Shown one piece after another: positions 8,074 to 35,776 of a DNA stretch of 64,000 nt. This DNA comes from a virus (taxonomy: Duplodnaviria; Caudoviricetes): the IMG/VR virus record IMGVR_UViG_3300020177_000966. One strand, 5' to 3'. The translations under genes were made by a program, and so were the position numbers. The number at the start of each line of letters is the position of its first letter. Within the stretch, counting starts at the first letter, position 1. The notes under the pieces are model-generated. The model saw only the letters and a list, made by a program, of their open reading frames with translations, ran no database searches and was not told the origin of the DNA.

Positions 8074-8103
8074 ATTATACTTTCTTATACCACCGATTGT
8101 CAA
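8074..8103 (-). promoter_or_regulatory. sigma70-type promoter of the helicase gene
   Basis: TTGACA (8103-8098), 18 nt, TATAAT (8079-8074), 6 nt, ATG. Confidence 0.8.
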
Positions 8104-15403: not shown

Positions 15404-15855
15404 AGTTTAACCTCGTCTATTCCCATATCTTTTGCCAGCTGAATAATTTCTTTTTTAGTAGATAGCTTTGCAATCATTTTAATTTCGTCAAGTTTTTTAT
15501 TTGGGTATAATGTAATTAGAAACTTAACTGTTTTGTTGTTATCAGCATCTTTTTTCTTGTTTCCAATCCATTCATGATACTGAATAGATTTTGTATTTCC
15601 TGATAGGCATAAAAGTTGCCATAAAAGTTTTTTATGTTTTTGTAGTGTAAAGAAATGTTTATTGTAATATTCATTTGTTTTAAACACAGCAAGTTCTTGT
15701 GCTTCTCTATTACCTTTAACTGCACTTACATATCTGTTAAGCAGATAAAAACTTACTTGTTTACGTTCTTCTTCCGACAGTTCATCCCAAACAGATATGG
15801 CCCCCATATCTATTGCGGCAAGTATATCTTTTAGTGGTAATTTTTTATCTGCCAT
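15400..15855 (-). CDS. clamp-loader small subunit (T4 gp62-like)
   Basis: FYLLNRYVS...NEYYN...LLWQLL...YHEWI pattern, size and replication-gene context. Confidence 0.65.
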   Translation of the reverse strand: MADKKLPLKDILAAIDMGAISVWDELSEEERKQVSFYLLNRYVSAVKGNREAQELAVFKTNEYYNKHFFTLQKHKKLLWQLLCLSGNTKSIQYHEWIGNKKKDADNNKTVKFLITLYPNKKLDEIKMIAKLSTKKEIIQLAKDMGIDEVKL

Positions 15856-16514
15856 GTTTCAACATCCTCCGGGGTATTAATCTCTACTCCATTAAAGTAT
15901 ACACTATTACAGCCGATTTGCCAACCGTTTTTTAGCCATCTCAACTGTTCTAGTTGCTCAATTCTTTCTTCTGCTTCTATAAGCAGGTGTGGATATGCTT
16001 GCAATGCTTGTTTGCGATAACCATAAACACCCAAGTGCCAGTCGCCATATCCTGTCATGCCTCTGCCAAACCATAATGCTTGATCACCTGCACGTACCAT
16101 CTTAACACTGTTAGGATCGTTTTGCATTTCAGCTGGCATTGTTGTGTACACTGTGCTTACTTCATATTGAGATAAACTAGCAATACAATTTTCAATTAGT
16201 TCTACAGTAACATCAGGCATGTCGCCTTGTACATTAATGAACTGATCAAAGTCGTCAAACACTCTACTGTTTACTGCTCCGGCACATCTTTCTGTGCCGT
16301 TTTGGTAATCTGTTGTGTCCATAATACACTTACCGCCGCCCATATAGTTGTATATGTCTTGGTGGTCAGTAAGCACAAATGTTGGTAGGTTAGACGCTGT
16401 ACAAGCGTCATACACACGTCTTATCATAGGAACGCCATCTAACATACACATAGGCTTTCCTTTGAAGCGTGTGCTGTTATATCTAGCCGGTATAAGAATA
16501 GCGGTGGATGTCAT
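15831..16514 (-). CDS. kdsB: 3-deoxy-manno-octulosonate cytidylyltransferase (CMP-Kdo synthetase)
   Basis: IPARYNSTRFKGKP, NVQGD, HLGVYGY, EQLEQLRWL. Confidence 0.92.
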   Translation of the reverse strand: MTSTAILIPARYNSTRFKGKPMCMLDGVPMIRRVYDACTASNLPTFVLTDHQDIYNYMGGGKCIMDTTDYQNGTERCAGAVNSRVFDDFDQFINVQGDMPDVTVELIENCIASLSQYEVSTVYTTMPAEMQNDPNSVKMVRAGDQALWFGRGMTGYGDWHLGVYGYRKQALQAYPHLLIEAEERIEQLEQLRWLKNGWQIGCNSVYFNGVEINTPEDVETWQIKNYH

Positions 16515-17259
16515 CTACAACCCTTTCAAAGTCTTCTAGTTTTAACATGTTAGGACCGTCGCTAGGTGCTAGATCAGGGTTAGCATGGACTTCCATAAAA
16601 AAGGATGTGATCCCAAGAGCAGACCCAGCCCTAGTGATCCCAGGGACATAATCACGGTTCCCACCACTACTATCACCCTGGCCTCCAGGTTTCTGTACTG
16701 CGTGAGTAGCATCAAGCACAATAGGAACATCATAGTTATCAAGCATATACTGTAGACCAGTAAAGTCCACGACCAAAGTATTGTATCCAAAACTTGTACC
16801 TCTTTCAGTAATCCAAACTTCTTTTGCGTCTGTACACTTACTTAGTATTCCTTTAACATCCCAGGGTGCTAAGAACTGTCCTTTTTTAATATTCACAATC
16901 ATTCCTGTGTCGCAGGCTGACGTAATCAAATCTGTTTGTCTACACAAGAACGCAGGAATCTGTAGAACATCTACAGCATCTCTAAACTGATTGCGTATAG
17001 TAGAAACTTGTTCAGAAGTATGTACATCAGTTAATGTTTTTAACCCTGGTATTTCTTTTTTCATAGTTTGAAAATCGTATAACGTAGTAAATAAACCTTG
17101 GCCTCTTTCTCCGTTTACACTAGTACGATTTGCTTTGTCGTAACTGGCTTTGAAGTAATATTCAATGCCATACTTGGCGCAAACTCTTGCACACTTTTCT
17201 GCAATCTCAATACTTTGTTCTAGTGTTTCGTGTTGGCAGGGTCCTGCAATAATTCTCAT
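16483..17259 (-). CDS. kdsA: Kdo-8-phosphate synthase
   Basis: IAGPC, KASYDKANRTS, QIPAFLCRQTDL, NIKKGQFLAPW, TERG, DATHAVQKPG, SDGPN. Confidence 0.95.
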   Translation of the reverse strand: MRIIAGPCQHETLEQSIEIAEKCARVCAKYGIEYYFKASYDKANRTSVNGERGQGLFTTLYDFQTMKKEIPGLKTLTDVHTSEQVSTIRNQFRDAVDVLQIPAFLCRQTDLITSACDTGMIVNIKKGQFLAPWDVKGILSKCTDAKEVWITERGTSFGYNTLVVDFTGLQYMLDNYDVPIVLDATHAVQKPGGQGDSSGGNRDYVPGITRAGSALGITSFFMEVHANPDLAPSDGPNMLKLEDFERVVDDIHRYSYTG

Positions 17260-17519
17260 TTTTCGTCCTTTACTACATAATACATTGTTACTAATTGATC
17301 TAATAATTTTTCTAATGTAGAATGTTCTTTTGCTAGTCTACACAAGTCTTGCCATTCACTATAGTCTAACAATTTTCCTTGGGCTTTAGCAACCGCACTG
17401 GAATCTCCGCCAATGATCCATCGAGGTACATTATTGTGCGGAGGATCTCTATAACGTGCATATACTACTCCGTCTGCACGTTCGTATATTATAGCTTCTC
17501 CTGGCAGGAGTTTAGCCAT
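17256..17519 (-). CDS. hypothetical protein
   Basis: 87-aa ORF coupled to neighbours (IYERADGVVYAR). Confidence 0.7.
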   Translation of the reverse strand: MAKLLPGEAIIYERADGVVYARYRDPPHNNVPRWIIGGDSSAVAKAQGKLLDYSEWQDLCRLAKEHSTLEKLLDQLVTMYYVVKDEK

Positions 17520-17719
17520 TACTCAGCTTTCTTAGGACGACCGCGTCTTTTAGGAGCGTCAGCTTTAGGCGCTGTCTTAGTAGTTGTTTTTTTAGTTGCT
17601 TTAATTGCCGCTGGCTTTTTAGTCACTGGCTTTTTAGCAACTGGTGCTTCTTCTACTTTGACTGCTTCAGAAGGTGTTTCTGAACTGCTACTAAACAAAT
17701 TTTTAAACCATGTAAACAT
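17519..17719 (-). CDS. small Lys/Ala/Pro-rich basic protein with AT-hook-like motif
   Basis: KKPVTKKPAAIKATKK and PKRRGRPKK. Confidence 0.7.
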   Translation of the reverse strand: MFTWFKNLFSSSSETPSEAVKVEEAPVAKKPVTKKPAAIKATKKTTTKTAPKADAPKRRGRPKKAE

Positions 17720-18078
17720 TATTTTTTTCCTTTATTAACTTCTGTGCCACTTGTACGACGAACAATGTCATCGTGATTAAATTCCGCCCAGTATAGTTCA
17801 AAAGCGACACCGTCTTCTAAACCTTCAAACTGGTGGATCTTGCCAGGCTTTACTTGAGTAAAGTCTCCTGCTTTAAGGATAGTCTCATCGACTAGTCCTT
17901 GATCATCTTGCCAAACACGGACAATCATCTTGCCCGATTCAACAAAGAATCCGTTCCATTTAAATTGATGCTCATGCTCTGAGCATTTGTATCCTGCTTT
18001 GTATTCGATGCGGTGAAACTCTAGTACACCGTTAGCATGGATAAGTTCTGTTTGTCCCCAAATCTTTCCTGCTTTCAT
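17719..18078 (-). CDS. cupin-domain protein (sugar isomerase-like)
   Basis: KIWGQTE, CSEHEHQFKWNGFFVESG, PGKIHQF. Confidence 0.8.
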   Translation of the reverse strand: MKAGKIWGQTELIHANGVLEFHRIEYKAGYKCSEHEHQFKWNGFFVESGKMIVRVWQDDQGLVDETILKAGDFTQVKPGKIHQFEGLEDGVAFELYWAEFNHDDIVRRTSGTEVNKGKK

Positions 18079-18584: not shown

Positions 18585-18585
18585 T

Positions 18586-21286: not shown

Positions 21287-21292
21287 AGTCTT

Positions 21293-21321
21293 ATTATAAT
21301 GTATTACAACTTAGATGTCAA
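21293..21321 (-). promoter_or_regulatory. sigma70-type promoter
   Basis: TTGACA (21321-21316), 17 nt, TATAAT (21298-21293), 6 nt, ATG. Confidence 0.85.
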
Positions 21322-22146
21322 GTGTTTTATAGGTATTCCTTTAGAAATTTCTTCAATAGTCCATTCGGTGTGTGCGTAGTCATTAAGCCATTGTATTCTA
21401 TCACCGTACAGTGGATTTTCAATATTGCGTAAGTTTTGTTCTGCAACGTCTACTGCTAAACTGCTAGGGCCTGTAAATGCAGGTACTCCGTTAATAATAC
21501 TATGTATGCCAGGGTTACTTGACCAACTTACAGTAGCCCATATGTTATTGAAGCCCATATCAAAATCGTCATAGCTACCAGTAATATGCTTAGGGTTTTC
21601 TCGTTTAACATTCTTAAATTCGTGTTCAATATGCGGTAATGGACATCTTGGATGTGGTCGAAATATTATAGGACGTTTTGTTTGTGCTTGTATAAAAGTT
21701 ATGGTATCTATTATCCATTGACTCATACTTGGCATACCTTGCCATTGTAAACTCTTATCGTGTTGGCCACAAATTAATATGTATTCACCGTCGTAGGTCC
21801 AAGGTTTTAATGTAAGTCCGAGAAGAGAAGCACGACTACTATCATTCCCCATAGGCCCAAAATAAGCATCTCTATTAATACCATTGAGTCCTACTTTCCA
21901 GGTTGTTCCTCGTTTGATCCCGCCGACTTCAAGTACGATGGTCGGTTTGGATTGTAAAACGTTCCTTTCCCAAATAGCACGGTTTCCAACCATACGACCG
22001 TTCCAAAGTACGCTCCAAATAACATCAATCCCATCATCACTGTTATCGACACAAGTATGCCCAAGAGCATTAGCGCCAGCGTGAAAGGCGTCAAAAACAG
22101 GGCCAGAATTAAGTGCGCCATATTGCCTCCAAAGATTAAATTTCAT
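21304..22146 (-). CDS. capsule-biosynthesis (KpsC/KpsS-like) putative beta-Kdo/ulosonate transferase
   Basis: ILICGQ...D, FRPHPR, SSNPGIHSIINGVPAF motifs. Confidence 0.55.
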   Translation of the reverse strand: MKFNLWRQYGALNSGPVFDAFHAGANALGHTCVDNSDDGIDVIWSVLWNGRMVGNRAIWERNVLQSKPTIVLEVGGIKRGTTWKVGLNGINRDAYFGPMGNDSSRASLLGLTLKPWTYDGEYILICGQHDKSLQWQGMPSMSQWIIDTITFIQAQTKRPIIFRPHPRCPLPHIEHEFKNVKRENPKHITGSYDDFDMGFNNIWATVSWSSNPGIHSIINGVPAFTGPSSLAVDVAEQNLRNIENPLYGDRIQWLNDYAHTEWTIEEISKGIPIKHLTSKL

Positions 22147-22978
22147 TCCAATACGCTTCAGTTCTATTTACCATAATGTCTTTAGCATCAGACTTGCCTT
22201 TGTCTTTGCGGCCGCCTTTCATATGATCAATCCATTTGCCTAACGGACCATTAATCAACGGATGGCCGCCTCCGCCTGACTTTGCTTCACGTAGATACAT
22301 TTCTGCTGAGTAGTCGTGTGACGGAAATTCGCTATACTTCTTTAGCAGTTCGCCAAACACATAACTGTCGTGCCATTCTTCTAATGTGAAGATACCGTTC
22401 TCAGCATCCTCGTACATACGCTCAAAGTCTTCTAAGAAACTGTGACACACAGGATGATTTAGATTCATACCGTAGAACCCGCACTCTGGCCAAGTCTGCG
22501 ATCCTTTACCTCTACCAACATATGTAATGTAAGCATTGTCTGGTAGTAGTTGTGCAAAGTCTTCATATTCCCAAGGGCTGTGAATAAAACTATCTGCATC
22601 CATCCACACACACCACCCCTTAGACCGCGCACAAGCGTCATACACAGCATATGTTTTATTAGCGAACCTAACTGCATCCCACTTGAATTCTTTGTTCCAA
22701 TCCTTGCGTGTGTGACGCTGTGGCTCATTGCTAACGTCTCCGTTAGCTTTGGGAACATTACGCCATTTGTCTTTAAACGCATTTAATTTAGGTAATACTG
22801 CTTTTGCATCTAATATTTCAATACGACTTGGATCGGGATTGTCGGGCACTACATCTTCTGCATACACAAGTAGTTTGATACGTTTATCAACCTTTGATGC
22901 AAAACTTTCTAAAAAACGTTTTCCGTATTTTACATATCCTGCCGGATGAAAAGTTGTTACTACTGTTATTTGTTTCAT
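22136..22978 (-). CDS. GT-A fold glycosyltransferase
   Basis: VVTTF N-terminus, WMDADS DxD motif; start at MKQIT (ATGA overlap). Confidence 0.7.
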   Translation of the reverse strand: MKQITVVTTFHPAGYVKYGKRFLESFASKVDKRIKLLVYAEDVVPDNPDPSRIEILDAKAVLPKLNAFKDKWRNVPKANGDVSNEPQRHTRKDWNKEFKWDAVRFANKTYAVYDACARSKGWCVWMDADSFIHSPWEYEDFAQLLPDNAYITYVGRGKGSQTWPECGFYGMNLNHPVCHSFLEDFERMYEDAENGIFTLEEWHDSYVFGELLKKYSEFPSHDYSAEMYLREAKSGGGGHPLINGPLGKWIDHMKGGRKDKGKSDAKDIMVNRTEAYWNEI

Positions 22979-23916
22979 TTTTTTGCCCATTCTCTCATAT
23001 GTTTCCAACACTCGCCGGATTTTAATTCATTTAACGTCCAATGACTCATTGCAACTCTTCGAAGCCAAGATTCTCTATCAAAGTCGTAATTAGGTGTATC
23101 TATTTTAGTTAAATCTGTATTTGCAACTTCTGCGGCTTGACTTCTTTGAGGATCAATAACAAATACAGGAACTCCTTCAATTGCAGATATTACACCAGGA
23201 CTACTGTTGTAACTAACTACAGCATATGCATCATGGAGGTCTTTTAATAAAGAACTAGTCGGTGACGATATCTTAACTTTGTGTCCAATTGCTCTTAGTT
23301 GCTGAATATGTTTTTCAATTTTCTTATCGCCAGGATGAAACCTAACCATTATTTCTCTGTCAGTATATCTTCTAAGATTTTGTAATAAAGGATGCAACCA
23401 ATTCATAATTTTAAGACCGTCCATACTCCATCCACCATCTCGTTGACATGTAATTAATATATAATCACCGTGTTTTTTCCATGGCTTTAAATTTATACCT
23501 AACGAATCTCGTAGTATTGCCCAGCGTTGCGCAAGTATTTTACTATCACAATATTCTCCAGTGTTTGGAAAAATTCCGTCGAAGCTATATCTTAAAAATG
23601 TATTTGAATTTTTTGGATCGTATGCTAGGAATAAATTTGCATCAGCAATAACAGTTCTTCCATTTATCTCGGACTGTCCTGCAAGAACCCTACGTCTTAA
23701 ATCTAAATGAGGAACGTGTTTACTTTCAGGATGTACAAATCCTTGTAGTACACCAATGTCAGCAGGTTCAAATTGAAATGTATTAATAATCTGTCCTTTA
23801 TCTCCAACAGCGTTTACTCCTTGAATAAAATACTCTATTAACTTTGGTTTTTCTAAATTTTTATTTCCGGGAGGTATAGCCTTCATATAGGCATTTACTC
23901 TTAAATTATTAGTCAT
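22975..23916 (-). CDS. KpsC/KpsS-like putative transferase
   Basis: ILITCQ, VRFHPGD, YNSSPGVISAIEGVPVF. Confidence 0.55.
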   Translation of the reverse strand: MTNNLRVNAYMKAIPPGNKNLEKPKLIEYFIQGVNAVGDKGQIINTFQFEPADIGVLQGFVHPESKHVPHLDLRRRVLAGQSEINGRTVIADANLFLAYDPKNSNTFLRYSFDGIFPNTGEYCDSKILAQRWAILRDSLGINLKPWKKHGDYILITCQRDGGWSMDGLKIMNWLHPLLQNLRRYTDREIMVRFHPGDKKIEKHIQQLRAIGHKVKISSPTSSLLKDLHDAYAVVSYNSSPGVISAIEGVPVFVIDPQRSQAAEVANTDLTKIDTPNYDFDRESWLRRVAMSHWTLNELKSGECWKHMREWAKK

Positions 23917-24775
23917 ATAACTTCATCCTCTCGATCATACCTAATGCAACTCCGCTACTCATTTCTTCTAATGAATATTGGCAGTATGCAAGATAATGTA
24001 AGACCCTTAAAAATTCACTTGCTTTAGGATAGTATGGATTTTCAATATTAGATAAATCTTTATTTGCTACCTCGTCAATACAGGACGGTGCCATAGTAAA
24101 TGCAGGAATACCATAATGCATTGCTTCAAGTCCGGCCATACTTTGGTATGTAACTACAGCATGCACGTTATCTCTTTTACATTGATGTGCTACGCTGTTT
24201 TCTTTAATTCTTTCAAACCGTAACCCTTTGTCACGTATAACAATAGGCCTATCTGTATATTGTTTAAGTTTGGATATAGTTTCTTCTACCCAGCTGTCTT
24301 TATCAATATTATAAAACTTACACGGTTTTTCTGATGGTGTTACAAGTAATATAGGACCGTTGTGGTCCTTTGGATCTTTCCTACCATTATATTTCATATA
24401 TGGTGCAAAGGATACCAATCTGTTAAATCTATCTCCAGGCACATCTTTAATTTTAGTATGTTGTACGTTGTTCTTTACAATTCTATAAAAGTATTTTTTC
24501 TTTTCTAAATTGCCCATATAACCATTATCGATATAATAAAAGTCTCTTCTAGTTTCCCAACAACGCCAAATTTCTTTACGTTTAGTCATGCTACGGAATG
24601 ATACTGGAATACTAATATCCCAGGGCGACTTGTCTATTTTACTACAAATTTCTTTTCGATCAACAGTTAATGCTTTCGTGCCTTTCTGCCAATGTTTCAT
24701 AATTTCGTCTTCGTCATTAAGCATTAGCATCCTAGGTGGTATTGGAGAATTTCCCTCCATATCAAAAGTTCCCAT
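23909..24775 (-). CDS. KpsC/KpsS-like putative transferase
   Basis: IDNGY, ILLVTPS, IRDK, TYQSMAGLEAMHYGIPAF. Confidence 0.5.
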   Translation of the reverse strand: MGTFDMEGNSPIPPRMLMLNDEDEIMKHWQKGTKALTVDRKEICSKIDKSPWDISIPVSFRSMTKRKEIWRCWETRRDFYYIDNGYMGNLEKKKYFYRIVKNNVQHTKIKDVPGDRFNRLVSFAPYMKYNGRKDPKDHNGPILLVTPSEKPCKFYNIDKDSWVEETISKLKQYTDRPIVIRDKGLRFERIKENSVAHQCKRDNVHAVVTYQSMAGLEAMHYGIPAFTMAPSCIDEVANKDLSNIENPYYPKASEFLRVLHYLAYCQYSLEEMSSGVALGMIERMKLYD

Positions 24776-24777
24776 AT

Positions 24778-26216: not shown

Positions 26217-26221
26217 GTAGA

Positions 26222-26229
26222 TATTTATA
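26222..26229 (-). promoter_or_regulatory. T4-type late promoter inside the glycan locus
   Basis: TATAAATA, 5 nt, ATG (26216). Confidence 0.65.
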
Positions 26230-26236
26230 TGCGTAC

Positions 26237-27468: not shown

Positions 27469-27483
27469 AATACACTCCTAATG

Positions 27484-28868: not shown

Positions 28869-30173
28869 TTAAAACAATCCTACATTGTTTAATACATCAA
28901 ATGGATCGCTACCAAATGTTGCTTCAAATTTTACAAGCATTTCTTTCTTCAATGCTGACTTTACTTCTTCAAATACAAACGCCCATTTTTCTTCTGGTAT
29001 GCATACTACTCCGTCAGGATCTCCAAAGACAATATCATTATTACGTACCGTAATACCATTAATAATTACAGGCATATTCATTTCTTCTAATGTGCCTTCG
29101 TATCTAATATCGTCTGGCATGCGCCCATGGGCAAACAACGGCAATCCCATTTGTGTTACACGATCTACATCTCTAGTTTGTCCATCTACAACTACACCTA
29201 CTGCACCACTACGGTATGCAAAGTGCGCATTAAGATCACCAAAGTATGCTTTATCTTTTACGTCAGTGCTTACAATAATAACATCACCTGGGGCTACAAA
29301 TTGATAACTGCCAAGAGCATCAAATATACCTTCCCAATGTTTTTGTTTAGGATCTTTCTCATCTTCTGGTAATGCTTTTAGTTTTAATGTTTTTGCATAT
29401 CCTAAAAATGTTCCGTTGTTCATTGATTTAATTTCACTACTTAAAAAATGATCAATACCGTGTTCTTTACAAATATCACTTAGTAAACAACTTGAAATTG
29501 ATTTACTTAACATCTTAAGTTGTTGAACTTTCTTTGCACGTTGTCCTGCACAAATATCTTTTGCAAAATCCAAATCTTCTTGATTATTAATATCAACTAA
29601 CTGCAACGGAGTTACAGACCATAGTAATGCATCAGAAGTATATCTTTTTTGTACAGGTTTACCATTTGTTTTAACAGCATAGAAACTCATTGCTTCTATT
29701 GTATGAATAGGTAAATCAACACTGTTAGGAATAGTTTGACCATATGTAGGTTTGCCATTTTCCCATAGATATAATTTTTGTTCTGAAACTGCAACTAAAC
29801 TTGTTTTATTACTTTTCTTTAATTCAGCTAACGCAGGATCAATAACAGTTTTATCAATAAAAGGTGCTGTACATAAAACTTGTACAATTATGTCTGCCTC
29901 AGCAACCTTAGATTCATTAGCAAACATAGCATGTCCATCAGTAGTATTATTTGCTAAACTAGAATCTCTATAATGATGCTTAATTGGCAAGTCGCTTGCT
30001 AACTCATGTATTTCTTTACTTTCGCTATCTAACCAAACTTCGTCAATTTCATCACACTTTAGTAATTGCTTTAATTTTCTTTTGAAGAGGTATTCACCAT
30101 CTAAAATTTGTAAATTTTTATTTTTAATTCTCTCGCTGGTTCCTTTTGCAGGTACAAATGCTATAGTTTTCAT
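28869..30173 (-). CDS. acylneuraminate/ulosonate cytidylyltransferase fused to RraA/HMG-aldolase-like domain
   Basis: FVPAKGTSERIKNKN, CTAPF, VDINNQED; C-terminal GDVIIVS...AYFGDL...GVVVDGQTRD...DIVFGDPDGVVCIP. Confidence 0.85.
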   Translation of the reverse strand: MKTIAFVPAKGTSERIKNKNLQILDGEYLFKRKLKQLLKCDEIDEVWLDSESKEIHELASDLPIKHHYRDSSLANNTTDGHAMFANESKVAEADIIVQVLCTAPFIDKTVIDPALAELKKSNKTSLVAVSEQKLYLWENGKPTYGQTIPNSVDLPIHTIEAMSFYAVKTNGKPVQKRYTSDALLWSVTPLQLVDINNQEDLDFAKDICAGQRAKKVQQLKMLSKSISSCLLSDICKEHGIDHFLSSEIKSMNNGTFLGYAKTLKLKALPEDEKDPKQKHWEGIFDALGSYQFVAPGDVIIVSTDVKDKAYFGDLNAHFAYRSGAVGVVVDGQTRDVDRVTQMGLPLFAHGRMPDDIRYEGTLEEMNMPVIINGITVRNNDIVFGDPDGVVCIPEEKWAFVFEEVKSALKKEMLVKFEATFGSDPFDVLNNVGLF

Positions 30174-30174
30174 T

Positions 30175-30894
30175 CTATTTCTTTCTAATAATATTTTCTA
30201 ATCTATCAACGTGCATAACATCTTTATGCTTAAAACCTTTGCTTAGATTTTTAAAAACAACGTCATGTATACCAAAGTGTTTTGTTAAATGTTTTATTGT
30301 AGCTACAGTACGTCTAAATGTGATTTGCTTCTTATCTTCTAATCGTTCAAGAACTAACAGTTGTTCTCTTGGCCCAGTTCCGTAGAAATGTGTACGCTCT
30401 AAATTACTATAATCATAATCAACACCGAGCCAATAAATTTCTTTAAATCCCATATAAAATGCTATAATAGAGGCATCAATAACTGTTGCCCTAGTAGTGC
30501 CCCATCCTTTTTCAATATTACTAGGAAATCCTTTTATTTCTACTGATTGTTTATCAGCGTATGTTTTAGGTATATTGACATAGTCTTCTCTTATGTTTAA
30601 TGTTGGATTAATTTCTGCTACTTTACTAGAATAAAATCTTGTAGCTTTCATATTAGCTAGTGCATCATATCTATGATTATATAATTCTTTATATACAATT
30701 GCGTCGCCAACAAAATAATAATCAAACTTTTTTAACTTAAGAGTATCCTTAGCATAAAAGGCCTTATTACATGCAAATACTATTTCATCATCTAATAACT
30801 CTAATCGTTCGTCAGATAAACTTGGTGCGCATCCTAAAATAAAACAGCGTTTACCTTTATGAATATTTTTAAAATCTTTTATTTCTTTCTTCAT
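30175..30894 (-). CDS. DUF115/Maf-like (motility-associated factor) transferase domain protein
   Basis: FKNIHKGKRCFILGCAPSL, FACNK, MGFKEIYWLGVD. Confidence 0.75.
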   Translation of the reverse strand: MKKEIKDFKNIHKGKRCFILGCAPSLSDERLELLDDEIVFACNKAFYAKDTLKLKKFDYYFVGDAIVYKELYNHRYDALANMKATRFYSSKVAEINPTLNIREDYVNIPKTYADKQSVEIKGFPSNIEKGWGTTRATVIDASIIAFYMGFKEIYWLGVDYDYSNLERTHFYGTGPREQLLVLERLEDKKQITFRRTVATIKHLTKHFGIHDVVFKNLSKGFKHKDVMHVDRLENIIRKK

Positions 30895-31382
30895 AATTCT
30901 GCCACCGCATAAAAAGAATGATTTAAATCGTACCCTTCTGTAACAAATACTTTATTAAATTTTTTAGCACAAAAATAATCTTTAATATCGCTTGGATGTA
31001 ATAAATGTACATGCTTTCTATTGTTCCACGGTTTCCAATACTGTTGATTAGGATGTGGCAGATACAAAAATACAATTCCGCCTTTATGTAATCTTGTTGT
31101 CCAATGATCGAGAGCACCTACCCAATCATTTAAATGTTCTAAGCAATGAGAAGAAAATATGTAATCAACCTTTTTATCTGGTAAATTATAAGCATCGTAT
31201 TCGTCATCAAATACAAGGTCAATCATTTGTGCGCCCGGATAAGCCCATTGTTCTCTATTACAACCAATGTCGAATCCTTTGCCTATACAAAATTGTTTTG
31301 CAAACGGAAACGCATACTGTGCGGCAAATCCTTTTCCTTGTAATTCAGGATATTCAACGCCGTTAAATTCAATTGTATTCAT
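30891..31382 (-). CDS. class I SAM-dependent methyltransferase
   Basis: GFDIGC, DYIFSSHCLEH, FLYLPH. Confidence 0.85.
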   Translation of the reverse strand: MNTIEFNGVEYPELQGKGFAAQYAFPFAKQFCIGKGFDIGCNREQWAYPGAQMIDLVFDDEYDAYNLPDKKVDYIFSSHCLEHLNDWVGALDHWTTRLHKGGIVFLYLPHPNQQYWKPWNNRKHVHLLHPSDIKDYFCAKKFNKVFVTEGYDLNHSFYAVAEL

Positions 31383-32136
31383 TAATCTTTGCTCCGTTAT
31401 CTCTAAACATTTTTAAATGATGTTCCCATTGACTTTCGCTTCTATTAGTATATATGTGTATATTCTCTGGTGGGAAATACATCTGAGCAAAGTGCATGTA
31501 ACCACTATCTACACCTATATGAGCTCTTGCCTTACTCATTACGTATCCAACATGCGTTGCTTTACGAAGTAATAGATTAGATGATTGTCCGCCTACAGTA
31601 ATTACTTCATATCCTAATGATTGCCACTTTTCAAAAATTAATGACAATTGATCAGGTTTTAATTTACGTTTCTTACTAGTAGGATCAAACTGTGCAGTTA
31701 CAAACTTTTTAGGTAATTTTATCTCAGACGACTTTGTAAAAGGTAAACACGGAAATGTTTTCATATATTCATCGACAAAGAAACTTGGCTGTAAAACTTT
31801 TTGTAATTTTCCTGGATACTTTTCGTAGTAATGTAATAATGCATCTGGATACGACTGCTGAACAAATTCTAAAAACTTTCCGTCATCTTCTTCAAAAAAC
31901 TCATGCACTTTTAAATGCAAACTATCCTTAGGAAATAAATCAATCACTTCACGCCAAGTATCAGGTTTATCTCTATTATATTGATGAGGAGCAATGTGTA
32001 AAGTTGCAGGTTCGTTATGTGCTAAACCGTAGTTGTAAGTTAGTAAACAACTATGTACAATATCGCCAAACCCTGGACAACCGTAAGGCAAGTGTTTAAT
32101 ACGAGTGCTCATGTATCTCATTACTACATGTTTCAT
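31369..32136 (-). CDS. GT9 (heptosyltransferase)-like GT-B protein
   Basis: GFGDIV near the N-terminus and HIGVDSGYMHFA near the C-terminus. Confidence 0.6.
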   Translation of the reverse strand: MKHVVMRYMSTRIKHLPYGCPGFGDIVHSCLLTYNYGLAHNEPATLHIAPHQYNRDKPDTWREVIDLFPKDSLHLKVHEFFEEDDGKFLEFVQQSYPDALLHYYEKYPGKLQKVLQPSFFVDEYMKTFPCLPFTKSSEIKLPKKFVTAQFDPTSKKRKLKPDQLSLIFEKWQSLGYEVITVGGQSSNLLLRKATHVGYVMSKARAHIGVDSGYMHFAQMYFPPENIHIYTNRSESQWEHHLKMFRDNGAKINEYN

Positions 32137-32918
32137 TTTATTGATTCCATTAGTGCAGGTACATTTTCTCCGTGCGCTGGCAATAAATCTTTAAGGAAAA
32201 AATGAACAAAGTATGCTTCGGGCAATCTTTTATCATCAATTCCTTTGTACAAACCATTCCATTTCCAATTCATATTAAGTGTAGGAATTTTTTCTTTTTT
32301 AACCCACCAGTTTAGTAACATTTGATCCGTGGACCATTTACGATAGCCAACTCCATCGACAAAGTCTTTAAACTCGGGTCTACTTAAAAATTCCTTTGGT
32401 GTTTGATCTTTTAGATATGGAAGAAACTTTTGACAATTAATTACCATTAATCCCATATTATAGAATTCAGCACCTAGTTCGTTCCATTTCCAGTCTACAT
32501 CTGTACATGGTTCAAATGCAGACTTGCTGTATTTTTTAATTTTTGATTTGTATTTTTTTGCACACGGTAGTTCACGTTCTGCAACCGCGCCAAAGGCATA
32601 TTCACTTGTTAGCTCTTCGAAAATATTTGGTGCTGTTGGTCTGATATAAATGTCGCTGTCTACAATTGCAACTTGGTCATATTTGTATAGATGCGAAAAT
32701 GCATTTTCTTTTTCAAAAATTGGTAGATACCCGAGGCGTTCAACAGCTTCTTTACTGCGCCCGGTCCGTTCAATATCTGGTCTAATTTTTAAAATAGGTT
32801 GTGTTTGAACTACATGATCAATATTGTATTTTGCACAATACTGTCTTACACTTTCAATACAATGCAAGTATAGTTTGCTTTGGGCACCAACTGCTACCTG
32901 ATAAATCATACGCTTCAT
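32133..32918 (-). CDS. GT-A glycosyltransferase (GT8-like)
   Basis: AIVDSDIYI, YNMGLMV, DQMLLN, WKWNG, VHFF. Confidence 0.75.
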   Translation of the reverse strand: MKRMIYQVAVGAQSKLYLHCIESVRQYCAKYNIDHVVQTQPILKIRPDIERTGRSKEAVERLGYLPIFEKENAFSHLYKYDQVAIVDSDIYIRPTAPNIFEELTSEYAFGAVAERELPCAKKYKSKIKKYSKSAFEPCTDVDWKWNELGAEFYNMGLMVINCQKFLPYLKDQTPKEFLSRPEFKDFVDGVGYRKWSTDQMLLNWWVKKEKIPTLNMNWKWNGLYKGIDDKRLPEAYFVHFFLKDLLPAHGENVPALMESIK

Positions 32919-33487
32919 GATAGATCCTTTGTAAAACTTACGTTTGTTTCATATGTGACTTTACTATACTTATCAAAGCGCATATCCACAATACCGTCGC
33001 ATAACATCCAGTCTGCTGGCATGACTCCATTAGTATGCACCCAGTCTAGTATCTTTTTTGCCCCAGTAGGCGTAATGCGATATGCTCTAGCACCTTCAAA
33101 CCAGTTACCTGCTGGTATAGGTTTTGCCTTGTTAAAGCCTTCAAATTTATATACATCACAATCTTCATATTCTCCCATTGGCTTTTTAAATACAACATCG
33201 TGCTCAAAAATACAAATAGGTGTATTAATGTTAACACACTTTTTCCATAAATTATATTGGCTTAAAAAGCATCCTTGTGTGCCAGGACGAGCTAATAGTC
33301 TTTTTGCTTTCTTATGCTCGATTGGATATAGATTATTTTGTTCGAGTGTATTAGTAGTACCTAATACACCTTCGTAGAGACTAATATTCCATCCATGTTC
33401 TCTACCTGTTTGTATCGCCCTATTTGCCATCTTGACACTAATAGGATATGATGGCAAGTAAATGACAAATCCATCATTTACTGCCAT
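32915..33487 (-). CDS. glycosyltransferase (GT25-like)
   Basis: GCFLSQYNLWKKC...IFEHDV, AYRITPTGA. Confidence 0.75.
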   Translation of the reverse strand: MAVNDGFVIYLPSYPISVKMANRAIQTGREHGWNISLYEGVLGTTNTLEQNNLYPIEHKKAKRLLARPGTQGCFLSQYNLWKKCVNINTPICIFEHDVVFKKPMGEYEDCDVYKFEGFNKAKPIPAGNWFEGARAYRITPTGAKKILDWVHTNGVMPADWMLCDGIVDMRFDKYSKVTYETNVSFTKDLS

Positions 33488-34337
33488 AATTTAACTCTCG
33501 TAATTCTTGTTCAATTTTAACTTTCCAATGATTTGGTAACCAACGTAGTTGAGCCGCTTTATAACGTTTGTCATTTTTCTTGCCGCCTTTACCTGTTGAA
33601 AAGATATCATCTTTTTTTAGACCCCAAGCATTCCACTTATATGGAATACTATGATAAGGTTTGTTTAATTCGTTATTCCATTGCGAGATAGTCTGCCTGA
33701 GAATATCTTGATCAATAAACCAATAACATCCGTCATCAAACCCTTGTTTCATGTTATCGCTAAACAATTTTCTAAAAAGTTGTCCGTCGTCATTGATTCC
33801 TAATGTTAACGCACTTGCAATAAACACATTTGTATCTTTTGGTTTAGGCATAATGCCAACGTGACAAGCAAGATTCATAAATGCTGATTGATGAAATCCG
33901 TTTCTTAAAATACTATCGCAGTCAATTTGAAAAACGTGTTGAGTTTTATTAGGAAATAATTCATCTAATCTCATAAATCTAACACTTGCAAGATAAGTTC
34001 TTCTTGCAATATAATCTAAATCAGAAGTCTTAAAAATATCAATGCCGTCTTTCATGCGCTTATGATTCTTTTTTAGATTAGTGTAAAATTTATTATCGAC
34101 ATCTTCCCATGTATACGTAAACTTATATTTGGATTGTAAATCATCTAACACAAGTTTATTCATGTTTCCTTCATTTATAATATGACAGTGTACGTGCATC
34201 CAACCTAGTGTTCTATTAATACTTTGTTGTAATGCAAATCCGTGTCGATCAAAATAATCGTAATCACAACTAAAGAATACAACACAGCTTTCACTTGCTG
34301 GCGTTAAACTTCCATATAATCTCGGTAACTCAAACAT
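33474..34337 (-). CDS. putative GT-A glycosyltransferase
   Basis: RFMRL, QIDCDS, WFIDQDIL. Confidence 0.55.
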   Translation of the reverse strand: MFELPRLYGSLTPASESCVVFFSCDYDYFDRHGFALQQSINRTLGWMHVHCHIINEGNMNKLVLDDLQSKYKFTYTWEDVDNKFYTNLKKNHKRMKDGIDIFKTSDLDYIARRTYLASVRFMRLDELFPNKTQHVFQIDCDSILRNGFHQSAFMNLACHVGIMPKPKDTNVFIASALTLGINDDGQLFRKLFSDNMKQGFDDGCYWFIDQDILRQTISQWNNELNKPYHSIPYKWNAWGLKKDDIFSTGKGGKKNDKRYKAAQLRWLPNHWKVKIEQELRELNYGSK

Positions 34338-35004
34338 CTGGTGCCATTCCGGGTCGATAACCTATTACTGCATTTTTTTCGCCGCGGCCTATTTTTCTAA
34401 TCATTCTATATCCTAATGGACTTAAAATTTCTCTAATACTATTAGCATGATACCCATAACGTGTTGGGTGGTCTTTACATTCATATAAGATTATAGGCCT
34501 ACAACGTTCAATGGTTTTTATTCCGCCCATTGCTACAAACGGTTCATATCCCTCAGCATCAATTTTAATAAAATCTACATCTCGCAGATTAAAAAAATCT
34601 AAAGGTTTTACAGGAATTGAACCTGTACTGTTTGGACGAACGTGTGTACTGAAACTTTTATTTGTCGTGTTAATTTCAACAGTTTCTTCTATTGCTCCTA
34701 AACCAACAGGATATGTTGTAACATTATCAACTTTTCTAACAGCAAGATTATGTTTCATACAGTTGTAAATCTGAGGATTAATTTCAAATGCATGAACGTG
34801 TTCAAAACTTTTTGCCATTTGATATGCTGTAATACCTACATGAGCTCCTACATCAACGGCAACTCGCCATTTTGCACACGAGCTCATTGCTGTTGCAAGT
34901 TCTAAGTTTTGATAGTTATTAATGTTACCTGCGCCTTGCTTTTTAGCAGACTTTAAACAAATGTCACCTTCAATACTTCTCCATCCATCAATTTCTACAT
35001 ACAT
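34330..35004 (-). CDS. FkbM-family methyltransferase
   Basis: VDVGAHVG, AFEIN, DFIKIDAEGYE. Confidence 0.9.
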   Translation of the reverse strand: MYVEIDGWRSIEGDICLKSAKKQGAGNINNYQNLELATAMSSCAKWRVAVDVGAHVGITAYQMAKSFEHVHAFEINPQIYNCMKHNLAVRKVDNVTTYPVGLGAIEETVEINTTNKSFSTHVRPNSTGSIPVKPLDFFNLRDVDFIKIDAEGYEPFVAMGGIKTIERCRPIILYECKDHPTRYGYHANSIREILSPLGYRMIRKIGRGEKNAVIGYRPGMAPDV

Positions 35005-35005
35005 A

Positions 35006-35776
35006 TTATTTTACCTGATATTTAAATGTGCATTTCCATGCAGTTCCGCTTGCAAATTCATTTCTTGAAAATTGACTCCATGCAATATGTTCAAGCATTT
35101 CTGAACGATCAAAATTAGTTTGTCCTTGCCAGTGTTCTACAGCACTTTGACCTAGTATTTTTATTGGCTTTCCTAAACATAGTGCTTCAACTGCCGCCAT
35201 ACTATGGTATGTGATTACTTGTTTTGCATTAGACATCAACGGCAAAACTTCTTTAAATCTTTGTCTACGCTTACCTTCTTTTTCTCTAATAACTAATTTA
35301 GTTGGTTGACTCTCATAATACTGTATAGTATCTCGTCTCCAGGTATCATAATCCTGTCCCAAGTATTTAAAAATATTACTATTGTTGGGCATTACTAAAA
35401 GATTATATTCTCCAATTGGATTCCAGTCTTGCCATAAGTTATCGTCAAATTCTAAAAATTCGCGCCGACTATGCGGTACAGGACAAGGCTTTGTATTTTG
35501 TAATGAGTTGTAACTGATTCGATAATAGAACGGAGTCTTGTGTCTATGATTGCCAATATAACCATTATCAATATGAAAGAAATTTAATTTAGGATTAGCT
35601 CGAATAGCATCAAATACCCAATCATCAAAAGGATGACTAAATGCAAGAAATCGATCTTCTTGTATTTCTTGAGGAGATTCTATTGTTATTGTATCGCACA
35701 TTCTGTACAAATACGTAAAAAGTTGTCCTCTTACTTCTTTTGAATTTTTAGGTACCTGAAACTTATATTGATGCAT
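35006..35776 (-). CDS. KpsC/KpsS-like putative transferase
   Basis: IDNGYIG, LLVMP, IREK, TYHSMAAVEALCLGKP; paralog of 23909-24775. Confidence 0.5.
   Translation of the reverse strand: MHQYKFQVPKNSKEVRGQLFTYLYRMCDTITIESPQEIQEDRFLAFSHPFDDWVFDAIRANPKLNFFHIDNGYIGNHRHKTPFYYRISYNSLQNTKPCPVPHSRREFLEFDDNLWQDWNPIGEYNLLVMPNNSNIFKYLGQDYDTWRRDTIQYYESQPTKLVIREKEGKRRQRFKEVLPLMSNAKQVITYHSMAAVEALCLGKPIKILGQSAVEHWQGQTNFDRSEMLEHIAWSQFSRNEFASGTAWKCTFKYQVK

What the first reader, a model, noticed from the sequence alone, without database searches (positions are those of the whole stretch)
15831..35776. Phage-encoded CMP-Kdo supply plus four KpsC/KpsS-like transferases: a candidate viral Kdo-glycan system
Seen: kdsA and kdsB side by side, and four related ORFs (21304-22146, 22975-23916, 23909-24775, 35006-35776) sharing a late S-x-x-G/A-x-(E/H/I)-A/S-x-x-x-G-x-P motif, two with an R-x-H-P motif. 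Known: that pattern characterises the CMP-Kdo-dependent beta-Kdo transferases of capsule synthesis (KpsC/KpsS/WbbB, GT99/GT107). Inference: the phage makes its own activated Kdo and builds a Kdo-containing glycan on the virion or host surface (receptor masking, superinfection exclusion or capsid shielding). KdsD and KdsC are not in the window, so they would come from the host or elsewhere in the genome.
Basis: partly seen in the sequence, partly recalled or inferred. Interest (0 to 1): 0.75.

Follow-up and report, generated by a model that had tools for sequence, protein, structure and literature searches.

The report
Phage Kdo genes plus KpsC-like transferases
An uncultured marine jumbo phage carries genes for making the activated bacterial sugar Kdo and four related enzymes with the unusual fold of bacterial Kdo-attaching enzymes, but they lack that family's key catalytic residue, so the phage probably builds an acidic sugar coat by altered chemistry on a target not yet known.

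Summary
kdsA passes NCBI's KDO8P-synthase model. kdsB matches only KdsB models, below their cut-offs. The four ORFs are true paralogues (BLASTP E 1e-20 to 3e-4).

AlphaFold models of two of them, including the most divergent, match only the retaining beta-Kdo transferases KpsC, WbbB and KrkA at the top of the PDB. Profile comparison aligns them to E. coli KpsC and KpsS.

They are not members of GT99, GT107 or GT140.
- No Pfam model reaches threshold.
- The nucleophilic Asp of the QXXXD motif is absent from all four.
- Two keep Gln plus RxHP (CMP binding). The other two have Pro plus RxK.

They belong to a large unnamed family, mostly from metagenomes and viral contigs (about 4,600 clusters at 50% identity).

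Three paralogues lie in an operon behind a conserved T4-type late promoter. No island protein has a membrane segment. The phage also encodes HldE/HldD and a second CMP-sugar synthetase.

Best reading: late, cytoplasmic assembly of an acidic glycan containing Kdo or another ulosonic acid, most likely on virion proteins. Donor, chemistry and target are all inferred.

This scan has noted the same pattern in at least 14 other phage genomes.

The parts
15831..16514 (-). kdsB-like CMP-Kdo synthetase (227 aa)
   Evidence: Pfam CTP_transf_3 E 2.3e-25. All five best NCBIfam hits are KdsB models, best 168 bits against a cut-off of 193.
16483..17259 (-). kdsA, Kdo-8-phosphate synthase (258 aa)
   Evidence: NF003543 equivalog 325 bits, above the 242 cut-off. 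TIGR01362 312.9 bits against 314.
17719..18078 (-). Small cupin that travels with kdsA-kdsB. It may be a sugar-phosphate isomerase (inferred).
   Evidence: Cupin_2 E 1e-7 and weak MannoseP_isomer E 0.006. About 91% identity among relatives. It is kept next to kdsA/kdsB in other gene contexts. Atlas neighbours are viral cupins, a minority of which carry isomerase Pfam families.
21304..22146 (-). KpsC-fold transferase paralogue 1, Q...RPHP type (280 aa)
   Evidence: BLASTP to paralogue 2 gives 1e-20. Motifs read ICGQHDKS and FRPHPR, with Ser at Q+4.
22136..23011 (-). Unassigned 291-aa protein, probably a GT-A type transferase (inferred)
   Evidence: Contains a MDADS (DxD-like) motif. Only a weak Glyco_tranf_2_4 hit, E 0.1. 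Conserved in synteny at about 70% identity.
22975..23916 (-). KpsC-fold transferase paralogue 2, Q...RFHP type (313 aa)
   Evidence: AF2 model pLDDT 96.4. The top 22 Foldseek PDB hits are all KpsC, WbbB or KrkA, E 4.9e-9 to 2e-5. VIA-align Z 13.0-14.9, against 11.4 or less for other GT-B chains. The top 8 Swiss-Prot models are all KpsC/KpsS/LipA/LipB/LpsZ/FixF. Gly at Q+4.
23909..24775 (-). KpsC-fold transferase paralogue 3, P...RDKG type (288 aa)
   Evidence: BLASTP 3e-14 and 5e-12 to paralogues 1 and 2, and 1.5e-17 to paralogue 4. Pro replaces the Gln and Lys replaces the His.
24778..25488 (-). GT8-family glycosyltransferase
   Evidence: Pfam Glyco_transf_8 E 1.6e-6, above cut-off.
25455..26216 (-). 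Nucleotidyltransferase (HldE domain II-like) fused to a cupin; first gene of the late operon
   Evidence: CTP_transf_like E 6e-14 and MannoseP_isomer E 6e-15. rfaE_dom_II 77.6 bits, below cut-off.
26222..26229 (-). T4-type late promoter TATAAATA. It heads the operon 25455 > 24778 > 23909 > 22975 > 22136 > 21304.
   Evidence: One of only 2 exact matches in the window, against 9.65 expected. TAAATA begins 11 nt before the ATG, as for terminase and other late genes. The motif is kept in 11 of 15 relatives whose protein is only 49-72% identical.
26237..26896 (-). GT25-family glycosyltransferase
   Evidence: Pfam Glyco_transf_25 E 7e-13.
28869..30173 (-). Second CMP-sugar synthetase fused to an RraA-like aldolase domain; possible second CMP-ulosonic acid supply
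   Evidence: CTP_transf_3 E 5e-19 and RraA-like E 4.5e-27. Weak PseF and KdsB hits. It is one of only two CTP_transf_3 genes in the contig.
30175..30894 (-). MptE/Maf-like protein
   Evidence: Pfam MptE-like E 1.1e-7, 32.2 bits, below the 34.6 cut-off.
30891..31382 (-). SAM-dependent methyltransferase
   Evidence: Pfam Methyltransf_23 E 9e-10.
31369..32136 (-). Unassigned 255-aa protein with a faint GT9 (heptosyltransferase) signal
   Evidence: PF01075 E 0.0011, 14.9 bits, below cut-off. The match at G000:C1:136372-136497 equals window 31426-31551.
32915..33487 (-). GT25-family glycosyltransferase, second copy
   Evidence: Pfam Glyco_transf_25 E 2.8e-12. BLASTP 4.6e-9 to 26237-26896.
34330..35004 (-). 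FkbM-type methyltransferase
   Evidence: Pfam Methyltransf_21 E 9e-18.
35006..35791 (-). KpsC-fold transferase paralogue 4, P...REKE type (261 aa from TTG 35791, 256 aa from ATG 35776)
   Evidence: AF2 model pLDDT 90.8. The top 20 Foldseek PDB hits are all KpsC, KrkA or WbbB, E 1.3e-6 to 3.4e-4. Weak PF05159 E 0.069 and DUF6716 E 0.03.
58682..60764 (+). HldE-like and HldD-like genes (ADP-heptose supply), elsewhere in the window
   Evidence: HldE NF008454 356 bits (cut-off 521). HldD TIGR02197 225 bits (cut-off 274.6). Each is the best-matching family for its protein.

Best explanation
The window is part of an uncultured marine T4-like jumbo phage. It carries a glycan-building island of about 20 kb (15.8-35.8 kb), broken only by three non-sugar genes: uvsW and two unassigned ORFs.

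Supply. KdsA and KdsB provide steps two and four of the CMP-Kdo pathway. The isomerase and phosphatase steps would come from the host, from the unsequenced half of the genome, or from a non-orthologous enzyme.

Transferases. Four paralogous soluble proteins have the modified GT-B architecture otherwise known only from the retaining beta-Kdo transferases KpsC/KpsS, WbbB and KrkA.
- Two (21304, 22975) keep the Gln that holds the Kdo carboxylate and the RxHP motif that binds CMP. These most likely transfer Kdo, or another CMP-activated ulosonic acid, from its CMP donor.
- None of the four has the Asp nucleophile of QXXXD. They cannot use the double-displacement chemistry through that Asp described for the retaining beta-Kdo transferases. 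They probably act by direct displacement, giving an alpha linkage, or by some other route.
- The other two (23909, 35006) have Pro and Lys at the Gln and His positions. They may use a different donor or contact CMP in another way.

Assembly. Together with GT8, GT25 (two copies), a GT-A-like protein, a Maf-like protein, methyltransferases, a second CMP-sugar synthetase and phage HldE/HldD, they would assemble a complex acidic glycan in the cytoplasm. Three of the four paralogues sit behind a conserved T4-type late promoter. The island has no membrane proteins, flippase, polymerase or exporter. The most likely acceptor is therefore a virion protein, not a lipid-linked host polymer.

Shown: gene identities, paralogy, fold, motif states, promoter motif, synteny. 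Inferred: donor, stereochemistry, acceptor and biological role.
For: - KdsA passes its equivalog model and KdsB is the best family for its gene.
- The four ORFs are paralogues.
- Fold of 22975: pLDDT 96.4. The top 22 Foldseek PDB hits are all KpsC, WbbB or KrkA. Z is 13-14.9 over about 250 residues, against 11.4 or less for other GT-B chains. The top 8 Swiss-Prot models are all PF05159 proteins.
- Fold of 35006, the most divergent copy: pLDDT 90.8, and the top 20 hits are again only KpsC, KrkA or WbbB.
- Sequence: the family profile puts WbbB first in the PDB at E 0.0022, and KpsC is the only other natural protein listed.
- hhalign gives 87% probability to E. coli KpsC-C (E 3.9e-6, both domains) and to KpsS (E 4e-6). 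Gln aligns on Gln, HP on HP and the S...EA...G.P block on its counterpart.
- 9 of 120 family members hit PF05159 and 25 of 120 hit DUF6716.
- (K/R)XHP is the CMP-binding motif shared by sialyl- and Kdo-transferases (PMC12887879).
- Late promoter.
- No membrane segments in the glycan genes; one unassigned 168-aa ORF is borderline.
- The kdsAB-uvsW-transferase arrangement is kept in 32 of 42 informative IMG/VR loci.
- A phage with kdsA in a different context (G001, 91% complete) also has three family members.
- In CcrColossus the family member sits in a GT cluster straight after a 5-kb tail-protein gene. In a 42-kb podovirus it sits near a TibC-like protein heptosyltransferase.
Against: - No biochemical data exist for any member of this family.
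- The Asp nucleophile reported as absolutely conserved in the Kdo transferases is absent. Gly, Ser, Pro and Asn occupy Q+4 in the four ORFs. 21 of 67 HP-type relatives have no acidic residue within six positions. Catalysis by the known route is excluded, and activity itself is unproven.
- That reading rests on sequence alignment, not on a superposition.
- Deposited phages that carry the family (Caulobacter jumbo phages, Pelagibacter phage Mosig) did not appear among the kdsA or kdsB tblastn hits.
- The cyanophage S-SCSM2R has kdsA/B but no family member. The two are therefore not obligately coupled.
- Ten kdsA loci in other contexts have no family member within 10 kb.
- A second CMP-sugar synthetase in the island could supply a different donor.
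- KdsD and KdsC were not found.
- The late promoter is a motif match, not a mapped transcript start.
- No Thr-rich or mucin-like candidate acceptor lies next to the transferases.
Confidence: 0.5

Rival explanations
1. Host-envelope remodelling. The island modifies host LPS, capsule or another lipid-linked glycan during infection, for receptor masking, superinfection exclusion or grazer evasion. It would use host carriers and exporters.
For: KpsS, KpsC and WbbB all act on lipid-linked acceptors at the inner face of the membrane without being membrane proteins themselves. GT8, GT25 and HldE/HldD are classic LPS-core families. Cyanophage literature interprets such genes as host-surface modifiers (PMC12801897).
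Against: The island has no priming transferase, flippase, polymerase, ligase or transporter, and no membrane segments in the glycan genes. Three of the four paralogues lie behind a late promoter of the type used by terminase and structural genes, which is late for changing the surface of a cell about to lyse. In CcrColossus the family member follows a tail gene.
Confidence: 0.25
2. The coupling is only apparent. KdsA/KdsB are ordinary auxiliary metabolic genes that sustain host Kdo and LPS synthesis. The four transferases would use another donor: a different CMP-ulosonic acid from the cytidylyltransferase-RraA fusion, or for the Lys-type pair a non-CMP sugar.
For: The family occurs in phages that did not appear among kdsA/B hits, and kdsA/B occur without the family. 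A second CMP-sugar synthetase and a Maf-like protein lie in the island. The GT107 family is already known to include a pseudaminic-acid transferase (PMC12887879). Two paralogues lack both the Gln and the His.
Against: No NeuB/PseI-type synthase is present in the contig, so Kdo is the only ulosonic acid with a recognised synthase here. Gram-negative hosts such as Caulobacter and Pelagibacter are expected to make CMP-Kdo anyway for LPS (general knowledge), so a phage lacking kdsA/B could still draw on it. kdsAB and the family co-occur in two different genomic arrangements and, according to this scan's notes, in at least 14 genomes.
Confidence: 0.2
3. DNA hypermodification. The sugars are attached to phage DNA, as in T4 glucosyl-hmC or RB69 arabinosyl-hmC.
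For: T4-like phages are known to glycosylate DNA with GT-B enzymes. The island lies among replication and recombination genes: uvsW, uvsX and gp32.
Against: No thymidylate-synthase or dCMP-hydroxymethylase homologue is present in the contig. More than ten transferase-like genes plus O-methyltransferases point to a complex glycan. A late promoter is not the timing expected for DNA modification. The fold matches Kdo transferases, and no DNA glucosyltransferase appears among the matches shown.
Confidence: 0.04

Closest known systems
KpsC and KpsS (CAZy GT107; Pfam PF05159 Capsule_synth), E. coli group 2 capsule beta-Kdo linker transferases
   Same: Same modified GT-B architecture: best structural matches, Z 14.4-14.9, Foldseek E 4.9e-9. 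hhalign gives 87% probability to KpsC-C and to KpsS. Shared features are an EDGF-like motif in the N-domain, the Gln after the first C-domain strand, RxHP, and the S..G.EA...G.P block.
   Different: Identity is only 9-15%. PF05159 is below threshold for all four ORFs. The nucleophile Asp (KpsC D160) is replaced by Gly, Ser, Pro or Asn. The phage proteins are single-module, 260-313 aa. There are no kpsMTED export genes. The setting is a phage late operon.
WbbB N-terminal module (GT99), Raoultella terrigena O-antigen terminating beta-Kdo transferase
   Same: Best sequence-profile match in the PDB, E 0.0022, aligned across the HP motif and the S..G.EA..G block. Z 13.1-13.8.
   Different: WbbB has QXXXKD with the Asp232 nucleophile and large insertions (about 400 aa). 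The phage proteins are smaller and lack the Asp.
KrkA (GT140), E. coli K13 capsule retaining Kdo transferase (PMC12887879)
   Same: KrkA is a precedent for a deeply divergent family that has the same fold but negligible sequence identity. Z 13.0-13.2.
   Different: KrkA keeps Q189TLND193, with Gln and Asp absolutely conserved. The phage family keeps the Gln in only about 58% of sampled members and Asp at Q+4 in about a quarter of those.
Synechococcus phage S-SCSM2R kdsA/kdsB (PMC12801897)
   Same: Adjacent kdsA and kdsB in a marine T4-like phage that has many glycosyltransferases.
   Different: Only 37% and 28% identity. No KpsC-fold family member is present. The genes were annotated only as host cell-wall modification genes.
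Mycobacteriophage virion O-glycosylation (Freeman et al. 2023, cited in PMC12619734)
   Same: Phage-encoded transferases that decorate capsid and tail-tube proteins in the cytoplasm. This is the functional model proposed here.
   Different: The transferase families, sugars and hosts are different. No Kdo or CMP-sugar supply is involved.

Membership tests
Retaining beta-Kdo transferases (GT99 / GT107 / GT140) | Modified GT-B fold of the KpsC/WbbB/KrkA type | tested here: met
   AF2 models of 22975 (pLDDT 96.4) and 35006 (pLDDT 90.8). The top 22 and top 20 Foldseek PDB hits are exclusively these enzymes. Z 13-14.9 against 11.4 or less for other GT-B chains.
Retaining beta-Kdo transferases (GT99 / GT107 / GT140) | QXXXD motif: nucleophilic Asp, reported as absolutely conserved in WbbB, KpsC and KrkA homologues (PMC12887879) | tested here: not met
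   hhalign places the family's Gln on the Gln of KpsC-N, KpsC-C and KpsS with no gap to Q+4. Q+4 is Ser (21304), Gly (22975), Pro (23909) and Asn (35006). Among 67 HP-type relatives it is Ser 32, Asp 17, Gly 16, Cys 2, and 21 have no acidic residue within six positions. This rests on alignment; no superposition was possible.
Retaining beta-Kdo transferases (GT99 / GT107 / GT140) | Gln of QXXXD that binds the Kdo carboxylate | tested here: inconclusive
   Present in 21304 and 22975. Replaced by Pro in 23909 and 35006.
CMP-sugar GT-B enzymes (sialyl- and Kdo-transferases) | (K/R)XHP CMP-binding motif | tested here: inconclusive
   Met in 21304 (RPHP) and 22975 (RFHP). 23909 has RDKG and 35006 has REKE. 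Across the family, Arg is in 118 of 120 members, His in 69 and Lys in 45.
Pfam PF05159 Capsule_synth (KpsC/KpsS/LipA/LipB) | Score at or above the Pfam gathering threshold (20 bits) | tested here: not met
   No hit for three ORFs. 35006 scores 13 bits, E 0.069. 9 of 120 family members hit at E 0.1 or better, best 6.3e-5.
Retaining beta-Kdo transferases | Transfer of Kdo from CMP-beta-Kdo with retention of configuration | not testable with these tools
   Needs an enzyme assay and NMR of the product.
KdsA (Kdo-8-phosphate synthase) | Equivalog model score above cut-off | tested here: met
   NF003543 325 bits, above 242. TIGR01362 312.9 bits against 314.
KdsB (CMP-Kdo synthetase) | Equivalog or subfamily model score above cut-off | tested here: not met
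   The five best hits are all KdsB models but below their cut-offs: 168 against 193, and TIGR00466 119 against 155. It is the best family for this protein, but substrate specificity is not certain.
Complete CMP-Kdo pathway (KdsD, KdsA, KdsC, KdsB) | All four enzymes encoded | tested here: not met
   TIGR00393 (KdsD/KpsF) and TIGR01670 (KdsC) give no match in the 167.5-kb contig. The contig is about 46% complete, so absence from the phage is not shown.

The most novel reading that the evidence does not exclude
The phage builds a glycan resembling the LPS inner core, made of Kdo and heptose, on its own virion proteins. It would use a new glycosyltransferase family that has the KpsC/WbbB fold but has dropped the covalent Asp mechanism, possibly inverting to give alpha-Kdo linkages. 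The small cupin that always accompanies kdsA-kdsB would be a non-orthologous arabinose-5-phosphate isomerase replacing KdsD. Virions would then be coated in the host's own conserved envelope sugars.
Probability: 0.15. Interest if true: 0.85.

Novelty: new variant of a known kind. Interest (0 to 1): 0.62.

Why it matters
Kdo is treated as a signature sugar of Gram-negative LPS and capsules. Its known transferases are WaaA and the retaining KpsC/KpsS, WbbB and KrkA group.

This work points to a large, unnamed and mostly viral family: about 4,600 clusters at 50% identity with E at or below 1e-3. It shares the rare KpsC fold but has mostly lost the catalytic Asp.
- It would be a new CAZy family.
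- It would be a natural experiment in how that fold changes mechanism.
- If the product decorates virions, it would extend phage virion glycosylation, so far shown in mycobacteriophages, to abundant marine and freshwater jumbo phages, and to an acidic LPS-type sugar. That bears on adsorption, grazing, particle stickiness and defence.

The family has members in cultured phages (Caulobacter CcrColossus gp128 and its relatives, Pelagibacter phage Mosig gp187), so the question can be tested directly.

Tried and rejected
- Megablast of the 20-kb region against deposited phages: no match.
- PHROGs: no family for any of eight island proteins, including KdsA and KdsB.
- Pfam at E up to 10: only sub-threshold hints.
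- A four-sequence profile against the PDB gave WbbB at only E 0.18. It needed the 120-sequence profile to reach 0.0022.
I therefore have no picture of the family's cellular distribution or neighbours.
- Cluster look-up of ten long or fused members returned only unnamed metagenomic records. Pfam on ten fused members showed only GT8 fusions in two.
- Independent kdsA-family coupling: ten non-syntenic kdsA loci had no family member within 10 kb. Of five whole contigs, only one phage lineage (G001/G002) had members. S-SCSM2R had none, and the 462-kb phage LR756500 had only a marginal match.
- Thr/Ser-rich acceptor proteins next to the transferases, a lead from another report of this scan: none in the window. 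The single very S/T-rich ORF in the contig is about 45 kb beyond the window and may be spurious.
- GT9 heptosyltransferase: only a faint match, inside 31369-32136.
- The paper on a new aquatic jumbo-phage lineage (PMC12619734) mentions glycosyltransferases but nothing about Kdo.
- I could not superpose the models on 8csb at residue level, because no coordinates are returned.

Full report
**Setting**

The window lies on a 167.5-kb IMG/VR virus contig that CheckV rates about 46% complete. That implies a jumbo phage of roughly 350 kb.

T4-type core genes frame the region:
- a UvsW-like helicase (18586-20049)
- a RecA/UvsX-like protein (36458-37543)
- a gp32-like protein (37615-38598)
- a T4-type large terminase (40988-42577)

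The nearest deposited relatives of the terminase are PA5oct-like Pseudomonas jumbo phages, at 54% identity. The 20-kb region has no nucleotide match among deposited phages. All genes from about 2.9 to 52.5 kb run on the minus strand.

**Observation**

kdsA (16483-17259) scores 325 bits on the KDO8P-synthase equivalog NF003543, whose cut-off is 242. kdsB (15831-16514) matches only KdsB models, the best at 168 bits against a cut-off of 193.

The four ORFs are real paralogues, with BLASTP E-values from 1e-20 to 3e-4. A profile built from them finds exactly four copies in the contig. The C-terminal S..G/A...G.P block is in all four, and RxHP is in two.

**What the four proteins are**

No Pfam, PHROG or NCBIfam model reaches threshold. 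The only hints are PF05159 at E 0.069 and DUF6716 at E 0.03, both for 35006.

The family is large and unnamed.
- A profile search of 1.84 billion cluster representatives gives 4,577 clusters at E 1e-3 or better, and 276 at 1e-30 or better.
- 3,074 close relatives of 21304 turned up, mostly in marine metagenomes, and none has an informative name.

I built a 120-sequence alignment (A2). With it:
- WbbB (GT99) is the best PDB sequence match at E 0.0022. KpsC is the only other natural protein listed.
- 25 members weakly hit DUF6716 and 9 hit PF05159.

The AlphaFold model of 22975-23916 is confident, with pLDDT 96.4 and pTM 0.92.
- Its top 22 Foldseek PDB matches are all retaining beta-Kdo transferases: KpsC, WbbB and KrkA, at E 4.9e-9 to 2e-5. 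Generic GT-B enzymes appear only below them.
- VIA-align gives Z 13.0-14.9 over about 250 residues for these 15 entries. The best other GT-B chains score 11.4 or less, and those that cover both domains have rmsd above 6 Å.
- Among Swiss-Prot models, the top eight are KpsC, FixF, LipA, LipB, LpsZ and KpsS. LpxB comes next, two orders of magnitude weaker.

The most divergent paralogue, 35006-35791, gives pLDDT 90.8. Its top 20 matches are again only KpsC, KrkA and WbbB. The other two paralogues are linked to these by BLASTP E-values of 1e-14 or better. They are KpsC-fold proteins.

**Residue-level comparison**

I took E. coli CFT073 KpsC and KpsS from the genome and aligned the family profile to them with hhalign.
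- KpsC-C: 87% probability, E 3.9e-6, spanning both domains. This includes the family's D.GY motif aligned on KpsC's EDGF.
- KpsS: 87% probability, E 4e-6.
- KpsC-N: 30% probability.

In all three alignments the family's Gln sits on the Gln of QXXXD, RxHP sits on HP, and the S...EA...G.P block sits on its counterpart.

The KrkA paper (PMC12887879) states the defining elements of these enzymes:
- the nucleophilic Asp, absolutely conserved, and the carboxylate-binding Gln of QXXXD
- the (K/R)XHP CMP-binding motif, which is shared with sialyltransferases

Here Q+4 is Ser (21304), Gly (22975), Pro (23909) and Asn (35006).

The family splits into two types:
- 67 of 120 members have Q...RxHP. The window's 21304 and 22975 belong here.
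- At least 28 have PP(S/T)xK...RxKP. The window's 23909 and 35006 are variants of this type.

Among the 67 HP-type members, Q+4 is Ser in 32, Asp in 17, Gly in 16 and Cys in 2. Twenty-one have no acidic residue within six positions. For the Lys type, 28 of 42 have none.

So the fold and the CMP-binding signature are present, but the catalytic nucleophile is not a feature of this family. I do not file these proteins under GT99, GT107 or GT140. They look like a new family in the same fold group that must use different chemistry. This inference rests on sequence alignment, because I could not superpose coordinates.

**Context**

The island also holds:
- GT8 (24778)
- two GT25 genes (26237, 32915)
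- a DxD-bearing protein of unknown family (22136)
- a weakly GT8/24-like protein (33474)
- a faintly GT9-like protein (31369)
- an MptE/Maf-like protein (30175)
- two methyltransferases (30891, and the FkbM type at 34330)
- a nucleotidyltransferase-cupin fusion (25455)
- a second CMP-sugar synthetase fused to an RraA-like aldolase (28869)

Elsewhere in the window are HldE- and HldD-like genes (58682-60764). The phage therefore supplies parts of the pathways for both signature sugars of the LPS inner core.

The contig has no KdsD, KdsC, NeuB-type synthase or thymidylate-synthase-like gene. It has exactly two CTP_transf_3 genes. None of the island's glycan genes has a membrane-like segment. One unassigned 168-aa ORF (18078-18584) is borderline.

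**Expression signal**

An exact T4 late-promoter octamer, TATAAATA, lies at 26222-26229 on the minus strand. It sits in the 20-nt gap before 25455-26216.
- It is one of only two copies in the window, against 9.65 expected. The motif is therefore depleted, and the other copy also sits in the gap before a minus-strand gene (the 1,093-aa ORF 47386-50667).
- Its TAAATA core begins 11 nt before the ATG. Terminase and three other late-region genes have the same spacing.
- The ATAAATATC...ATG element is kept in 11 of 15 relatives whose encoded protein is only 49-72% identical.

The tightly packed genes downstream (25455, 24778, 23909, 22975, 22136, 21304) would form a late operon that contains three of the four paralogues. 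A perfect sigma-70 consensus then precedes the next gene, 20042-21286.

**Distribution**

At least 129 IMG/VR stretches encode a relative of this kdsA; the 80 loci kept are 68-90% identical. Of 42 loci with enough flank, 32 keep the order transferases - uvsW - cupin - kdsA - kdsB.

Ten loci carry kdsA in other contexts, with no family member within 10 kb. One of those phages, 182.7 kb and 91% complete, does have three members about 20 kb away.

Among deposited phages:
- kdsA/kdsB occur essentially only in cyanophage S-SCSM2R and one 462-kb megaphage. S-SCSM2R was published in 2025 as the first report of these genes in a cyanophage (PMC12801897). Two "Acinetobacter phage MD-2021a" assemblies also matched, but their status as phage is uncertain.
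- Neither carries a clear family member.
- The family is present in Caulobacter jumbo phages and Pelagibacter phage Mosig, which did not appear among the kdsA/B hits.

The coupling is therefore real within lineages but not obligate. Gram-negative hosts are expected to make CMP-Kdo in any case (general knowledge).

In CcrColossus the member (gp128) lies in a transferase cluster straight after a 5-kb tail-protein gene. Its neighbours are a sialyltransferase-like gene and a GT9 gene. In a 42-kb podovirus the family match lies near a TibC-like protein heptosyltransferase and next to the terminase gene. Both fit protein glycosylation.

**Interpretation**

The best-supported reading is late, cytoplasmic assembly of a complex acidic glycan. 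The HP-type paralogues would transfer a CMP-activated ulosonic acid, most simply the Kdo that the phage helps to make. The likeliest acceptor is a virion protein.

Rivals:
- host LPS or capsule remodelling
- a donor other than Kdo, with kdsAB acting as plain auxiliary metabolic genes
- DNA hypermodification, which is the least likely

None of the donor, stereochemistry or acceptor claims has been shown.

**Relation to earlier work**

The full-text searches I ran returned no paper that describes phage KpsC-like transferases, and the KrkA paper does not mention phages.

Within this scan, the same pattern was noted in at least 14 other phage genomes. Other follow-up agents reached similar verdicts, including the missing Asp. 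I re-tested those points here independently.

Noticed in passing
window 17719-18078 (-): This 119-aa cupin is about 91% identical among relatives, far more conserved than its neighbours. It stays beside kdsA-kdsB even in phages where the rest of the synteny is gone (L062-L064, L067). Its nearest Atlas clusters are viral cupins, a minority of which carry mannose-6-P or lyxose isomerase Pfam families. It may be a sugar-phosphate isomerase standing in for the missing KdsD.
   Followed up: partly
window 28869-30894 (-): A CMP-sugar synthetase fused to a full RraA-like (HMG/CHA aldolase-type) domain lies next to an MptE/Maf-like protein. This could be a pyruvate-aldolase route to a second CMP-activated ulosonic acid. 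No NeuB-type synthase is present in the contig.
   Followed up: partly
window 58682-61170 (+): HldE-like (356 bits), HldD-like (225 bits) and a WbuC-like cupin point to a phage ADP-heptose supply. They lie in the same plus-strand gene block as the large ORFs 55699-57210 and 57207-58682.
   Followed up: partly
window 21293-21321 (-): A perfect 12/12 sigma-70 consensus (TTGACA-17-TATAAT) ends 7 nt before the ATG of the unassigned 414-aa gene 20042-21286. That gene evolves fast (about 35% identity among relatives) and sits between the transferases and uvsW.
   Followed up: no
window 26222-26229 and 50707-50714 (-): TATAAATA occurs only twice in 64 kb, against 9.65 expected, and both copies lie just upstream of minus-strand genes. 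This depletion fits selection against stray late promoters.
   Followed up: partly
L093 (Caulobacter phage CcrColossus 98.8-103.4 kb): A transferase cluster, gp126 (sialyltransferase-like), gp128 (KpsC-fold family member), gp129 (GT-A) and gp131 (GT9), follows a 5-kb tail-protein gene and precedes the lysis cassette. This is a cultured system in which the family could be tested.
   Followed up: no
L095 (podovirus MW202713.1): In this 42.7-kb phage, the tblastn match to the family lies mostly in unannotated sequence just upstream of, and slightly overlapping, a gene annotated as a PLP-dependent enzyme. A TibC-like heptosyltransferase and a methyltransferase lie nearby, and the terminase gene follows.
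   Followed up: no
G001:C1:109490-110407 and G002:C1:39764-40681: The best-scoring family member in this second kdsA-bearing phage lineage has three in-frame stops (1 TGA, 2 TAA) inside the match. It could be a pseudogene, two genes, or an assembly problem.
   Followed up: no
window 8075-9046, 11902-12417, 12414-12995 (-): Among the replication genes are a carbamoyltransferase N-terminal-domain-only gene, a peptide deformylase and a 2OG-Fe(II) oxygenase.
   Followed up: no
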